DNA of 59,387 nt, the filler included, from Candidatus Woesearchaeota archaeon CG1_02_57_44 (GTDB taxonomy: Archaea > Nanobdellota > Nanobdellia > Woesearchaeales > CG1-02-57-44): assembly GCA_001871415.1 (NCBI GenBank). It is 6 parts of 6 records of this genome, joined end to end, with 100 filler letters (N's around TTAATTAATTAA, not from the genome) between each part and the next. Parts side by side here need not be neighbours in the genome. Positions count along the whole stretch, not along the records: positions 33,136 to 40,198 come from MNWW01000062.1; positions 40,299 to 47,687 come from MNWW01000019.1; 4 more parts are not named here. The stretch is one strand, 5' to 3'. A program made the position numbers. Positions 36,001 through 42,000 of the stretch are shown here, in pieces; positions within the stretch are counted from its first letter, which is position 1; the number at the start of each line of letters is the position of its first letter.

Positions 36001-39000
36001 ATGCCGCCCGCTCGCCGGCCAGCGCCGCCGCGACCTCCGGTCGCTTGAGCACCTCTTCGATGCCTTCCTTGCCCGCTCCCTGGCACGTTGCATAGAGCGC
36101 CAGACCATCAATGTCTGGCGTCAGATGCCGCTTGAGCTCTTCCTTCCAGAATCCAGGACTGGCGAGGACGATCTTTGCAGGGTCCTGACGTGATGCCAGC
36201 GCAGACAAGTGCGCAGCCAACCCCTCAAAGAACCCCGTTGTCCTGTTGCCCTTCTCGCCCGTGTCAAACTGCTTGCCTGAGACACCAGAAGCAAAGTCAG
36301 CAAGATGCGCCACCTGCGCTCCGGTCAGCATAGCGAAAGATGCCTTGCCCTTGTCAAACGCGCAGACCAGCACGGGCTTACGCCGGGGCTTGCACGCTTC
36401 AGTGAGCAATTCCCGCGCATAACCAAGCCAATCCTGCTTGATGATAGTGAGGGCATCACCTGGCGCGAGCTGGAAGCTATGGTAGCTGCCCAACGGGACA
36501 TCATCAGGCCCAGAGACTATCTTGCCGCTGGCGCGAAGACCATCGCCAAGTTCCATCTTCTCAACAGAGATGCCCAAGCGCACAGGCCGTCGTTCAGTCG
36601 CGGTCTCTGATACCGCGACCTTGCGCATGGTCTTGCCTTCGATAGTGTCCCCTGTAGTGATGATGCGCGCGAGATACCAGGCGTCTTCTGGCGAGTCCAG
36701 CCGCACCTTGGCACTGCCCTTCCTGAAATCGCTGAAAACAAGGTGCATGGACGCCCGAAGGAAAAGATTTATATATAAAGGTATGCAGGGTGAAGAGTGT
36801 GAAAAGCACTGCCAGCAGACTCCTGCACCGTCGGAAAGGCCGCAAAGCCCAGGATGCCGCCAATGCCGCGGTCCTGCTGGGCATCATCACCGCGTTCATC
36901 ATCCTCTACATCCTGTTCTTGCCCCCAGACATCCGCAATGACCTGCTAGGAGAATCCGGGAGCAGCATAGCGTCTGGCGGTTCCGGAAGCTCTGGCGTGG
37001 GAAAACTAGAAGCGACGCTGCTGCATGAGAACCCTGGCAGACTGGATTTCATCGCAGAGGACAACTATGTCCATAGCATCCCCAGTTTCTATCTATCCAA
37101 GACCACCAATGCGCAGGTGCTCAAGGAAGAACCACCAATAACCGTACGCAACGGCGTCTTTGATAAGAAGAACGTAGTGACCACATTTCGCGTCCAAGAC
37201 CTGACGACGGCCCAGAATGTGTTGCTCAGTTTCACCGCGACCAAACGCAAGGGCGAATTGACCATCAAGCTGAATGGCAGGGAGATCTTCAGCAGCGTGG
37301 TCGATGAGATGAATGTGCCGCCAATCACCCTTGACAAGTCCTTGCTGCAGCCCATCAATGAACTGGAGTTTTCCGTCGGGAGTGTGGGCTGGCAATTCTG
37401 GCGCACAAATGAGTTCCTCATCCAGAATCTCAAGATAACCTCAGACATTACTGATCTCACACGCCAGCAGGCCAACAATGTTTTTTCCATGTCCAGCATC
37501 GAGCGCTACAATCTGGAGAAAGCGTTCCTGAAATTCATCCCGGACTGCCGTGATGCCGGGACATTGCACGCGAGCATCAATAATATCGAGCTGTACGGGG
37601 GTGTTCCTGAGTGCTCGGTGCTGAATGTTGTGGAGATCCCAGGCAACGCGCTTGAAGCCGGCGAGAACAACGTGGTCTTCAAGACGGATTCCGGTTCATA
37701 TCTCATCGATCGAATCACCGTGGAGACCACGCTGCGGGAGCTGCCGAGCATCGTCTATTTCTTTGAGCTGAGCGCAGACCAGCTAGAGGCGACGCAGAAC
37801 CACAATCTGACTGCCAATATGACCATGCAGTTCGTCGATGACGACAAGGAGAAGAGCGCGGGCGTGTACGTGAACGGCCACGCGACATCCCTGCGCCAGT
37901 ACGGCCCGACCTATGTCAGGTCCATACCCCCAGAGTGGCTGCGTGAAGGTACCAACGACCTGCGCATCGATCCGAAAAGCACCTTGCTGCTCGTCACCCT
38001 GGATGTCGAGCTGCGCAGAAGATGACGGATGACGCTGCAGGAGATGGCACACTCCGGAGAGCAGGCCGGACCATCAGGGATGGCGGCAAGCTGGTGCTGA
38101 CCACCGCCGACAACCTGACAGACCCGAATTTCTACAAGGACGCGCTGACCAAGGGGACGGGCTGGACCATCAGCAAGATAGCCTCCATCATCATCCTGCT
38201 GCTCCTGCTCCTGCTGATCGGATGGATGGGAAGCGTCGCTTACGGGTGGTCGCAGGCAGGCATCCTGCAGGAGAGATGGGACGATTTCAAGGCAGGTATC
38301 CTAGGATTCAAGGGCTCGCTGGACACAGGCTACAATCGGATGATCCAAGAGGCAAGCGGACAGTATGTGGAAGGTGACACCGAGCAGACCAAGGAATTCA
38401 TCGGCATAGCGATCGATGACCCGTCCATCCCCAATCAGCGGGAATACGATCTTGATGAGAAGGAGTACATCGAGCTGCACGCCAAGCTGCAGGCATTCAA
38501 CTCGCGTCAGGAGATAACGAAGATAACCGTGACCTGTGGCACGGAGCAGGAGCAATGGGAAATAGTGCCCAAAGCGCCCTATCAGGGAATCCGCTATGTC
38601 GCTGAGGAATTGACCTGCTATGGCCCTGGCCAGAGCATCCAGCTGGGGCTCAACAAGGTCGCATTCCGCGCCCTTGCCGAAGGATTTGTGACCGAAGCGC
38701 ACCTGACGAATAATTTTGTGCACAAGGACGCGCTGGACGGGAAGCTTCGTGACTGGGCCATCCAGCACAGCGCCACCATCAATAATCCTAGTGACCACGC
38801 CCGGGCCATCAGCGATGAGTTCGGCGTCGCCGGCGACACCAGCTATCTCTCCGTGTCAGACCAGGGACCGCTCAAGCTCATCATCCAGACCGAGCCTACA
38901 TCTGTGATAGGCATCGACGAGAGCCACGGCGTCCGGCTCAAGGTCGCGCTGGAAAACGCTGCTCCCGGGACCATCACTTTTTTGCACACGCTCACGGTCC

Positions 39001-42000
39001 AGCTTCCCGAAGGCCTGCATATCGATACGGATGCTGAATCCTGCCCGCATTTCACCCAGGACAGGACCACAGTGACCGTGGACCCGTCCTACTTGGGGAG
39101 GATAAATCTTGACGATGTCGCAAAGAACCAGCAGGTGGCCATCGGCTCGTGCATGCTGACCACAGACAAAGCAGGATTGCATGCTCTGCTCAAGTTCCCT
39201 GCCATGCCGAATCCGGTCATCTTCGCCGCGTCTGTGACCTATGATTATCTGGCAGTCAAAGAGTACAGCGTCATGCTTCGCAGCCCATATGAAGAGAGCG
39301 CCGCCAACGGCTATGACGACCTGGGAGATGGGGACGCCAGCGTATATAGCGGCTCAGACAGCGATTCCTGGTGGGGGGATGGCTGGTGGTCTGGAGACGC
39401 CCCTGCCACCTATGACACCCGGGTCACCGGTAAGTGCGCAGATGTCATCAATTACGCGCAGGGCTACTTGGGGACTGGATATGGTGGGCTCACTGCCTGT
39501 TCCGCCAAGAACGCGCAGGCTGGCGCGTGCACGACACAATGCGGCTCCTTTGTAAGCAACGCGTACCGCTACACAGGTCATGCTGTGCCAGTAGGTAATG
39601 GTGATGGCAAGTGCGATGGACCGCTGGTGACTAAGATCGGCAAGGATCCCAGCATCCTGCAACCAGGGGACATATTCTCGTATAGCAGCAGAAAGAGCGG
39701 ACATACGGGAATGTTTGTCGGTGTCGGGTATCAGGCATTGGTCGATGGCCACTACGTCTTCAAGCAGGATCCGAATGGCAAACCTGTGTTCATCCACAGC
39801 ACCAATGGATGCTATGCAGACGGAACGCACTGCAGTGAGGTGCAGTATATCTATTATGACAGATTGGTTCGCTATCATCCAAACATGGTCTTCTGCAGGC
39901 ATAAGGAATGCACGTGAGGCACGCTCAGCGATGCTTCACCCTCGACGATTCACCTTGTTGACCTGACAATGCTATCCAATCTTCCCCGATAATCGCAGGA
40001 GCACCGCGTCTGTTTGCCGCTGACTCCTCCATCAGCCATGCTCGCCAATACCTTTAAATATGCCAGCGCCCAGAATCAGCGTATGGGGTCGGCAGATGTT
40101 GACGATGAGCGCCTTGAGGATGAGCTGGCAGAGAGAGTGGAAGAAAAGCTCGAGCAGGGCTTGTCAGACCCTAAGAGAGTCCAGTCCACATCATCTGCNN
40201 NNNNNNNNNNNNNNNNNNNNNNNNNNNNNNNNNNNNNNNNNNTTAATTAATTAANNNNNNNNNNNNNNNNNNNNNNNNNNNNNNNNNNNNNNNNNNNNAT
40301 CGTGAGCGGCGCTGTGTCCGAGCGCATCCAGTTCAAGGGCTACCTGCTCTACAGCGTCTTCATCACGGCATTCCTGTATCCTGTCATCGGCCACTGGATA
40401 TGGGGGCAGGGGTGGCTCGCAGCCAAGGGATTCATCGACTTCGCAGGATCCACCGTGGTCCATAGCGTCGGCGGCTGGGCAGCGCTCGCGGGCGCGCTTG
40501 TCCTCGGTCCTCGCATCGGCAGGTTCCCTAAACATGGCGCAAGACCCATCCGGGGCCACAGCCTGACATTGGCAGCACTGGGCGTGTTCATCCTCTGGTT
40601 CGGATGGTATGGATTCAATCCAGGATCAACGGTCTCGGGAACTGACCCACGCATCGCCATGATCGCTGTCACCACCACGCTCGCGGCCGCGGCCGGCGCG
40701 GTGAGCTCCATGACCTTTGCCTGGCTGCGCTACAAGACCCCTGATGTCAGCCTGACCCTTGGCGGCACCATCGGCGGCCTGGTGGGCATCACCGCAGGCA
40801 CCGCGAATGTGAGTCCGCTCGACAGCATCATCATCGGCGCCATCGCCGGCATCCTCTACGTGCTCGGCGTGGCGCTGCTCGACAAGCTGCGCATCGACGA
40901 TCCTGTCGGCGCGGTCCCGGCGCACGCATTCTGCGGTGCCTGGGGCACACTCGCGGTCGGCCTGTTCAGCAGCACGGCTGACGCACCGGGCCTGTTCTAT
41001 GGAGGCGGCACAGGCCTGCTGGCGACCCAGCTGCTGGGGGTCGCGAGCGTGTTCGTTGCGGCCTTCGGCACTATGTACCTGTTCTTTCGGGTCATTGACA
41101 AGACCGTCGGCCTTCGGGTCAGCAAGGAGGATGAGCTCAAGGGCCTGGACCTTGTGGAGCACAGCACCGAAGCATACGCGGACTTCAATATCACTGCCAG
41201 CAATGATTGAGGTGAAACACCATGAAACTCATAGCAGCCATCATCAGACCTGACAAGTTCAGGGATGTCAAGGAGGCGCTCTTCGCACAAGGGGTCTTCA
41301 TGATGACCCAGCTTGATGTCCGTGGATGCGGACAGCAGAAGGGCCTTCCGCTTGAGTACAGAGGCGTCGTCGAGGAAGTCAACCTGCATCGCAAGACCAT
41401 GCTGCTCATCGGGGTCAATGAGAGCTATGTCAAGAAGACCGTCAAGGCCATCGTAGGAGCCGCGCGGACCAATGGCGGCAATATAGGCGACGGAAAAATA
41501 TTTGTACTAGACCTTGAGGACTGCGTGCGCATCCGCACCGGTGAGTGCGGCGTTGCTGGCATCGGCGGCAGATCAGCAGAGCTGGACGCACTGAAGGGAA
41601 AGGTCACCACCATCAAATGAGCCCCACCCGTGACCTCACAACCGGCTATGATCACAAGCAGTCATGTGATGACGTATAGGGGAAGCGCCTGGAACGGAAG
41701 AGCGGCCCTGCGTGGGACGCCTACCGGATCGCATGACGCATAGCGTAAACAAGGAAGGCAAGGAAGGTGAACGCATATGGATGACGTACTGAAACGCGCA
41801 GAGAAGGACAATGTGAAGTTCGTGGAACTGCAGTTTACTGACATCCACGGCATGACCAAGGCAGTGACCATTCCCATGGACAAGCTGGCGGAATCGCTGG
41901 AAAAAGGTACTTGGTTCGATGGCAGCAGCATAGAAGGATTCACGCGCATCGCGGAATCAGACATGTTCCTGATGCCGGATCCCGCGACCTACGCCATATT

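What a model noticed while it worked through the whole genome (the two positions that open the first line are those of the whole stretch)
36799..40198. Order-wide pilin-like/lipoprotein operon whose scaffold protein carries interchangeable peptidoglycan-hydrolase tips
g00409 (408 aa, class III-like signal peptide, all-beta, no family) heads a conserved operon: a membrane-anchored scaffold protein, then 3-4 paralogous Ig-fold lipoproteins. This genome has two scaffold copies in tandem: g00410 ends in an NlpC/P60 domain and g00364 (C21:101-2476; C24 overlaps C21 by 261 identical bases) in a DPBB/RlpA-like domain, followed by lipoproteins g00365-367. Across Woesearchaeales the same scaffold ends in unrelated peptidoglycan hydrolases (SLT, M23, Amidase_2, glucosaminidase) or in no tip, so it is one polymorphic locus for attacking or attaching to bacterial walls.
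Evidence so far: g00409 has a single-copy match in 96 of 101 Woesearchaeales and 95 of 101 Nanobdellota. In 40 regions downstream of it, the scaffold follows directly in 30, nearly always with 1-5 lipoprotein paralogues (own HMMs, call 99). 17 of these 30 scaffolds have a tail over 90 aa; Pfam gives SLT in 5, M23 in 1, Amidase_2 in 1, glucosaminidase in 1 at E<1e-5. In 10 other loci: M23 in 2 (E 5e-27, 1e-7), weak SLT in 1. g00410 tip: 37-44% identical to NlpC/P60 (C40) proteins, Cys/His motifs kept. g00364 tip: Atlas score 0.91 to a DPBB cluster (41% of members carry PF03330), 0.96 to unnamed phage clusters. Lipobox and invariant Cys in the lipoproteins; model pLDDT 88, Ig-like, best Z 9.9. 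Contig overlap: [...]
(Added by a program. Inside this text positions count along the whole contig: they may not be those of the stretch shown here. "Call 12" and the like, gene names such as g00115 and contig names such as C1 are that model's own, and its searches are not shown. The text may have been shortened before it was handed on; [...] marks where a part breaks off. The agent that wrote the report below was given it as the finding of a first reader that could run no searches.)

Follow-up and report, generated by a model that had tools for sequence, protein, structure and literature searches.

The report
Archaeal surface scaffold with swappable wall-cutters
A large group of tiny uncultured archaea shares a set of cell-surface genes in which one membrane-anchored protein is often capped by different enzymes of the kinds that cut bacterial cell walls, which hints that many of these archaea attach to or feed on bacteria.

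Summary
The operon is real and wider than described. g00409 (pilin-like N-terminus; Ig plus two carbohydrate-binding-type jelly-roll domains) matched 143 of 151 phylum genomes. It is followed by a membrane-anchored two-Ig scaffold and 2-4 lipoproteins; the scaffold's C-terminal half is weakly homologous to them.

Tips are swapped between sister scaffolds. Of 55 same-order scaffolds, 14 carry SLT, glucosaminidase, M23, Amidase_2 or M15 at E<1e-5. Here the tandem copies carry an NlpC/P60-like tip (Cys-His-His kept) and a DPBB-like tip; both calls rest on sub-cutoff matches of homologues.

'One polymorphic attack locus' overstates. All 16 scaffolds from other orders are tipless. Most SLT domains lie elsewhere. 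The g00410 tip family mostly rides on other pilin-like multi-hydrolase proteins, one of them in this genome.

New here: the same 8 genomes lack g00409, bacterial-type Lgt and LspA, although a 2025 paper reports no archaeal Lgt or Lsp.

Best reading: a clade-defining contact/adhesion module that some Woesearchaeales arm with wall-lytic enzymes. Wall-lytic enzymes in this group are already published; the operon was not found in eight literature searches. No activity or host is shown.

The parts
35621..36748 (-). Divergent upstream gene (pelota-like by recalled motifs); a homologue lies in 53 of 60 same-order regions. Context, not part of the system.
   Evidence: the name is recalled, not searched
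36769..36780 (.). TATA-like A/T box midway between the two divergent starts; probable shared leaderless promoter
   Evidence: sequence; inference from archaeal promoter spacing
36799..38025 (+). g00409, 408 aa: class III-like N-terminus (RKAQ, then hydrophobic helix 21-39), one Ig-like domain with two nested jelly-roll (CBM-like) domains
   Evidence: pLDDT 91.2; Z 10.5-11.5 to BcsB, CBM-type domains and PNGase F; about 100 aligned residues, rmsd 2.2-2.9 for single-domain hits
38022..39290 (+). g00410 scaffold core: short head, one TM helix (53-71), helical stalk, two nested Ig-like sandwiches with conserved Cys pairs; C-terminal half homologous to the lipoproteins
   Evidence: hhalign 76%, E 2.3e-5; pLDDT 89.5; best Z 8.2, rmsd 3.2, 100 aligned: generic Ig
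39291..39401 (+). Acidic Gly/Ser/Asp-rich linker between scaffold and tip
   Evidence: translation
39402..39917 (+). g00410 tip: NlpC/P60-CHAP-like cysteine hydrolase; putative triad Cys507 (39540), His561 (39702), His592 (39795)
   Evidence: Cys and first His invariant, second His at least 90% in 26 rows; PDB NlpC/P60, E 8e-4
40053..40062 (+). Second TATA-like box; probable own promoter of the duplicated scaffold g00364
   Evidence: sequence; inference
40083..40198 (+). 5' end of g00364 (second scaffold, about 776 aa). It continues on C21:146-2476 with a DPBB-like tip at about C21:2030-2452, then lipoproteins at C21:2537-3628, 3648-4628 and 4723-5703, a 137-base repeat, and a fourth lipoprotein at C16:24910-25863 (-).

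Best explanation
The operon encodes a cell-surface contact module that is ancestral to Woesearchaeales and neighbouring orders. It has three parts: a pilin-like protein with lectin-type jelly-roll domains (probable glycan recognition), a transmembrane two-Ig scaffold, and 2-4 related Ig lipoproteins. The lipoproteins are probably lipidated by the bacterial-type Lgt and LspA that share the operon's distribution. The core is tipless. In Woesearchaeales the scaffold's extracellular C-terminus is a hot spot where wall-acting domains are repeatedly gained, swapped and lost, drawing on a pool shared with large pilin-like multi-hydrolase proteins elsewhere in the genome. An armed scaffold holds a peptidoglycan hydrolase at the archaeal surface, so it would nick or grip a bacterial wall only on contact, as an epibiont needs. 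No immunity gene is needed because archaea lack peptidoglycan. In this genome the scaffold was duplicated and the copies carry a peptide-cutting tip (NlpC/P60-like) and a glycan-cutting or glycan-binding tip (DPBB-like).

SHOWN: gene order, conservation, predicted folds, tip families, tip exchange, co-distribution with Lgt and LspA.

INFERRED: topology, prepilin processing, lipidation, assembly into one complex, catalysis, and a living bacterial target.
For: Conservation and order. Only wall-acting Pfam families at E<1e-5 in scaffold tails, 14 of 55. An own lysozyme-like profile adds L060 and L052 and second domains in L081 and L095, with no hit on reversed tails. Exchange on the quick tree: g00410 and g00364 in one clade (SH-aLRT 99) with NlpC versus DPBB tips; Amidase_2 beside NlpC (99); M15, weak SLT and an unassigned tail together (99); at least 28 label changes over 72 rows, no shuffled control. 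Shared tip pool. Catalytic residues kept in both local tips. Lipobox in 128 of 148 same-order lipoproteins. Lgt in 141 and LspA in 137 of 151 genomes, with the same 8 genomes lacking both and g00409. Prepilin peptidase and T2SSE-type ATPases are in the genome. Archaeal peptidoglycan hydrolases are reported to kill bacteria (PMC12352652, title and passages).
Against: Most scaffolds are unarmed: 16 of 16 in other orders, and 26 of 55 in the order have tails under 90 aa. About 12 long tails are Cys-rich, Fn3/Ig-like or unassigned. Family f44 keeps g00409 in 16 of 16 genomes but shows SLT in 0 of 16, and 2 of the 8 operon-less genomes have SLT. Neither local tip reaches a Pfam cutoff. Two of four M23 tips lack zinc ligands. 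g00409 fails the recalled FlaFind-type pattern at +2, and only 24 of 59 homologues fit it. The pilus ATPases are on other contigs. The 8 triple-negative genomes come from 5 families and are not independent. The tree is the quick one, with 35 of 69 branches open. No host or activity is shown.
Confidence: 0.55

Rival explanations
1. The operon is a housekeeping envelope structure (surface lattice, or accessory of a pilus or uptake machine) unrelated to bacteria. The hydrolase tips are passengers on any convenient exported C-terminus.
For: Near-universal, almost always one scaffold per genome (two only in G000 of 31). Fixed between housekeeping genes. Tipless in other orders. Generic Ig folds. 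The same tips ride on many other bodies.
Against: Within the operon the tips fall only on the scaffold. The jelly-roll domains of g00409 resemble carbohydrate-binding modules. This rival still leaves the tips working on bacterial walls.
Confidence: 0.2
2. The tips serve scavenging: they digest wall debris of dead bacteria for amino acids and sugars, with no attack on living cells.
For: Proposed for Pacearchaeota in PMC11537232 (passages). The domain families cannot tell live from dead substrate.
Against: Rapid swapping between unrelated bond specificities on one anchor fits target-specific contact better than bulk digestion (inference). Degenerate tips are retained.
Confidence: 0.15
3. The tips are mainly wall-binding adhesins that use enzyme folds as lectins. 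They grip exposed peptidoglycan but do not cut it.
For: Two M23 tips and L083 lack zinc motifs; some lysozyme-like tails are weak or degenerate. Non-enzymatic Fn3/Ig and Cys-rich tails occupy the same slot. Castelle 2021 suggests attachment.
Against: A Glu-Ser motif at the expected catalytic position is kept in the SLT tails. Cys-His-His and the GIDL Asp are conserved in the local tips.
Confidence: 0.1

Closest known systems
Woesearchaeota/Pacearchaeota murein transglycosylase proteins (fam00969, module 98; Castelle et al. 2021, PMC8204110) and GH23 of 'vampiristic' Woesearchaeota (Vigneron et al. 2022, PMC9723730)
   Same: Same organisms, membrane-linked wall-lytic domains, same proposed role in attaching to or attacking bacteria.
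   Different: fam00969 is listed at about 1,950 aa and with GH23. The passages seen describe no operon, scaffold, lipoproteins or tip exchange among six or more hydrolase classes. Module 98 may contain these families as unknowns; the table rows seen give no sequences to check.
Archaeal modular peptidoglycan hydrolases (Strock et al. 2025, PMC12352652)
   Same: Bacterial-type catalytic domains in archaea, prominent in Nanoarchaeota; reported to kill bacteria.
   Different: The proteins here are tethered to an unknown-family Ig scaffold in a conserved operon and show no Pfam wall-binding domain. The terms pili and lipoprotein do not occur in that paper's main text.
Polymorphic toxin systems (Rhs, CDI, LXG; recalled)
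   Same: Constant N-terminal carrier with a variable C-terminal weapon.
   Different: No immunity gene, no orphan tip cassettes at the locus, no sign of tip release, and the carrier is usually unarmed.
Archaeal type IV pilins and class III signal-peptide proteins (recalled)
   Same: Basic residues, then G/A-Q, then a hydrophobic helix in g00409; prepilin peptidase and ATPases in the genome.
   Different: Three-domain Ig plus jelly-roll body; no assembly genes in the operon in this genome.
NlpC/P60 (C40) endopeptidases and RlpA-type DPBB lytic transglycosylases
   Same: Catalytic motifs and profile similarity of the two local tips.
   Different: Both are diverged subfamilies below Pfam cutoffs; the DPBB tip has no SPOR domain or lipobox.

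Membership tests
NlpC/P60 superfamily (g00410 tip) | Cys-His-polar catalytic triad | tested here: met
   Cys and first His invariant, second His at least 90% conserved in 26 rows
NlpC/P60 superfamily (g00410 tip) | Profile match to PF00877 or PF05257 | tested here: inconclusive
   No hit for g00410 itself. The 54% identical paralogue hits CHAP E 1.1e-4 and NLPC_P60 E 0.016. The family profile hits PDB NlpC/P60 at E 8e-4 and CwlO at 0.009.
NlpC/P60 superfamily (g00410 tip) | Peptidoglycan endopeptidase or amidase activity | not testable with these tools
   needs an assay
DPBB / RlpA-like (g00364 tip) | Profile match to PF03330 | tested here: inconclusive
   No hit for the tip. 10 of 15 homologues at 40-49% identity hit DPBB_1 at E 3e-4 to 0.026, all under the cutoff. 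Atlas lead 0.89, 17% of members.
DPBB / RlpA-like (g00364 tip) | Conserved D-x-G-P and IDL aspartates (motif recalled) | tested here: met
   LDVGPW and AGIDL invariant in 16 rows
RlpA proper | Lipoprotein with a SPOR domain | tested here: not met
   TM-anchored scaffold, no SPOR hit
Polymorphic toxin system | Constant carrier with variable C-terminal effector | tested here: met
Polymorphic toxin system | Cognate immunity gene next to the effector | tested here: not met
   The next gene is a conserved lipoprotein in nearly all loci
Polymorphic toxin system | Orphan alternative-tip cassettes at the locus | tested here: not met
   None in the gene maps of 60 regions; the second tip copy in G000 is on another carrier
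Type IV pilin (g00409) | Class III signal peptide | tested here: inconclusive
   [KR][GA]Q before the helix in 44 of 59 same-order homologues; recalled FlaFind-type pattern in 24 of 59, not in g00409
Type IV pilin (g00409) | Pilin head fold | tested here: inconclusive
   Best matches are jelly-roll and Ig domains
Type IV pilin (g00409) | Prepilin peptidase and assembly ATPase encoded in the genome | tested here: met
   all on contigs other than the operon's
Bacterial-type lipoproteins (g00365-367, g00272) | Lipobox with conserved Cys after a hydrophobic stretch | tested here: met
   128 of 148 and 26 of 31; Cys at least 90% conserved
Bacterial-type lipoproteins (g00365-367, g00272) | Lgt and LspA present | tested here: met
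Bacterial-type lipoproteins (g00365-367, g00272) | Diacylglyceryl actually attached; AliA/AliB route excluded | not tested
   AliA was not searched; lipid chemistry needs mass spectrometry

The most novel reading that the evidence does not exclude
This operon, together with bacterial-type Lgt and LspA, marks the acquisition of a bacteria-directed epibiotic lifestyle at the root of Woesearchaeales and neighbouring orders. It would form a contact apparatus anchored by bacterial-style lipidation, possibly with host-derived diacylglycerol lipid, and its scaffold tip would be a swappable host-wall key. Tip type would then predict host wall chemistry for a large uncultured archaeal group with no confirmed host in the papers seen.
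Probability: 0.3. Interest if true: 0.9.

Novelty: new variant of a known kind. Interest (0 to 1): 0.7.

Why it matters
Whether Woesearchaeales have bacterial hosts is stated as open in Castelle 2021. This locus gives a nearly universal, mostly single-copy place where wall-enzyme content can be read across genomes, and small soluble tips that can be expressed and assayed on sacculi without culturing the organism. The shared distribution with Lgt and LspA conflicts with the statement in PMC12462473 that no archaeal homologues of either have been identified, and names likely substrates for those enzymes.

Tried and rejected
Complex prediction of scaffold core with a lipoprotein: no answer, score 0.01; not used as evidence.

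No RNA holder was listed. Strain-level tip variation: contigs of X3 and X4 match the tip where they cover it, and gaps in cover say nothing.

No hit or nothing useful: word search with the g00410 tip; PDB sequence searches with single tips; PHROGs for both local tips; the sigma-70 promoter scan, at chance level and not suited to archaea; the Atlas search for the lipoprotein, which gave only unnamed Woesearchaeota clusters; the cluster look-up, which gave no useful names.

No pilin or S-layer fold appeared in the top 50 fold matches, which does not exclude them.

The idea that operon-less genomes also lack wall enzymes failed: G134 and G191 have SLT. Profile searches of operon-less genomes were blank in 5 of 5 for g00409 and in 7 of 8 for lipoproteins, with one weak N-terminal hit at E 2e-4.

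The careful tree did not finish in two runs. M23 was not found in G000, which is 82% complete. Earlier-finding look-ups by relatives, sequence and words were empty.
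Full report
Observation. The window holds g00409 (36799-38025) and g00410 (38022-39917), and the contig ends at 40198. 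The last 261 bases of C24 equal the first 261 of C21 and occur nowhere else in the genome. One contig of run X1, which may be the source of this DNA, carries the stretch on past that point. C21 gives a second scaffold, g00364 (32% identical core), and three lipoproteins. C21 also overlaps reverse C16 by 193 identical bases, about 55 of them unique, so the fourth lipoprotein is directly linked across a 137-base repeat. The gene that lies near the operon in 46 of 60 relatives is on C16 a few kb further on, which fits this join.

Distribution. g00409 matched 117 of 121 order genomes (G000 and the unpublished G111 and G120 included) and 143 of 151 phylum genomes. Names among the listed homologues were Woesearchaeota or Nanoarchaeota hypothetical proteins. 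The scaffold profile hit 55 of 60, directly behind g00409, and three lipoproteins is the usual number. In other orders it hit 14 of 20, plus 2 without filters, usually with two lipoproteins, and every one of these 16 scaffolds ends within about 32 residues of the core. Two scaffold copies were seen only in G000 among 31 genomes.

Anatomy. The g00409 model (pLDDT 91.2) has an N-terminal helix, an Ig-like domain and two nested jelly-roll domains. Its best matches are BcsB, carbohydrate-binding-type domains of glycosidases and PNGase F (Z 10.5-11.5). A shared fold does not show function. A [KR][GA]Q motif precedes the helix in 44 of 59 homologues, but the recalled FlaFind-type pattern fits only 24. 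The scaffold core (pLDDT 89.5) is a TM helix, a helical stalk and two nested Ig-like sandwiches with only generic matches (Z up to 8.2). Its C-terminal half aligns with the lipoproteins (hhalign 76%, E 2.3e-5), so they are probably one family with two anchor types; this support is modest. Conserved Cys pairs and the charge pattern suggest the Ig domains and tail lie outside the cell; this is inference.

Tips. 29 of 55 scaffolds have a tail of 90 aa or more. Pfam at E<1e-5 gives SLT in 6, M23 in 4, glucosaminidase in 2, Amidase_2 in 1 and M15_4 in 1; a seventh SLT passes the curated cutoff at E 8e-5. A profile built from the SLT tails adds L052 and second domains in L081 and L095, and finds nothing in reversed tails. 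About 12 tails remain Cys-rich, Fn3/Ig-like or unassigned. Of seven named loci, five had a scaffold hit; two repeat scaffolds already counted and were dropped, and the other three end in one M23-like and two SLT-like tails by eye. The 20 long lipoproteins and 13 long g00409 variants carry no hydrolase.

Tip exchange. On the quick tree (72 rows; the careful search did not finish) g00410 and g00364 fall in one clade (SH-aLRT 99) with two NlpC-tipped scaffolds, which fits a local duplication followed by tip replacement. Other starred clades also mix tips. Two of four M23 tips lack zinc motifs.

The two local tips. The g00410 tip has no Pfam hit itself. It defines a family of 72 proteins with a conserved Cys-His-His set. 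Of 54 members scanned, many hit NLPC_P60 or CHAP weakly, and the family profile hits solved NlpC/P60 enzymes. The g00364 tip has 15 stand-alone homologues at 40-49% identity, 10 of which hit DPBB_1 under the cutoff, with invariant DVGPW and GIDL. The Atlas gave 0.93 to unnamed phage clusters and 0.89 to an RlpA-like cluster.

Why 'one locus' is too narrow. Only 5 of the 72 tip relatives sit on the scaffold. Many others are proteins of 300-1,800 aa with class III-like N-termini, and several of the long ones string together SLT, NlpC/P60, muramidase, glucosaminidase, amidase or M23 domains. G000 has such a pair on C64: a 420-aa protein with a 54% identical tip and an 1,111-aa ORF with NlpC/P60 and SLT. 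SLT occurs in 80 of 151 genomes; of 10 candidates near g00409, picked by eye from the listed coordinates, 9 fall in the scaffold. This tip subfamily was found in 8 of 301 order genomes, mostly in other ORFs.

Link to lipoprotein maturation. I confirmed Lgt and LspA here. In the same 151 genomes Lgt was found in 141 and LspA in 137, and the 8 genomes without g00409 are all among the misses for both. These 8 belong to 5 families in other orders and may reflect few events, so no statistic is claimed. Bacterial Lgt uses phosphatidylglycerol as donor (established knowledge), so the lipid source is an open question.

Literature. Castelle 2021 (PMC8204110; passages, and about 18 of 52 module-98 places of its supplement) reports a Woesearchaeota-Pacearchaeota module of 51 mostly unknown families and a large transglycosylase family proposed to attach to bacterial walls. 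Vigneron 2022 (PMC9723730; passages) proposes predation. Strock 2025 (PMC12352652; passages, and a search of 12 of 13 supplements with no 'Woesearchaeales' hit) reports archaeal wall hydrolases prominent in Nanoarchaeota. PMC11537232 (passages) suggests use of dead-cell peptidoglycan. PMC12462473 (passages) states that no archaeal Lgt or Lsp homologues have been identified. 10.1101/2025.11.11.687807 (passages) added only that bacterial hosts are possible. Searches returned no description of this operon. The library lacks most subscription papers, and the unread supplement rows may list these families as unknowns.

Verdict. This is a conserved, apparently undescribed envelope operon whose scaffold is one of several places where Woesearchaeales display wall-acting domains. 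Contact-dependent action on bacterial walls is the most likely role of the armed forms (0.55). Housekeeping envelope structure (0.2), scavenging (0.15) and binding only (0.1) remain open. Interest 0.7.

Noticed in passing
window 77-213 and C21:5797-5934: A 137-base palindromic repeat: 46 hits on 38 contigs, 35 near full length, 38 within 350 bases of a contig end, flanked by ATAA on both sides. It resembles IS200/IS605 ends (recalled) and explains most assembly breaks.
   Followed up: partly
L005:315-1577 and 1499-4834 (G000 C64): Second wall-enzyme locus: a pilin-like 420-aa protein with a tip 54% identical to g00410's, then an 1,111-aa ORF with NlpC/P60 (E 3e-9) and SLT (E 1e-11).
   Followed up: partly
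G000 C40:41838-42542 and C66:2632-3021: Bacterial-type Lgt and LspA, found in 141 and 137 of 151 phylum genomes; the 8 genomes without g00409 lack both. Worth its own study.
   Followed up: partly
P0124-P0139, P0151-P0157, P0170: Large proteins, many with class III-like N-termini, chaining several wall hydrolases (SLT, NlpC/P60, muramidase, glucosaminidase, Amidase_3, M23, GDSL lipase); possibly Castelle's fam00969 or kin.
   Followed up: partly
L039, L050, L053, L055, L057, L060, L074, L092-L094: About 570-aa g00409 variants with an extra stretch of about 165 aa between residues 330 and 340; no Pfam family.
   Followed up: no
window 31683-33035: Multi-TM membrane protein with a long Pro-Thr repeat stalk, cut by the contig end.
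   Followed up: no
window 33502-35528: Two overlapping genes that look like split subunits of an ADP-forming acetyl-CoA synthetase (recalled motifs, not searched).
   Followed up: no
window 40302-43105: Ammonium transporter, PII and glutamine synthetase-like genes in a row on the next contig (recalled motifs, not searched).
   Followed up: no
window 33136-33401: The start of C24 overlaps the end of C19 by 266 bases at 96% identity, a probable further join.
   Followed up: no
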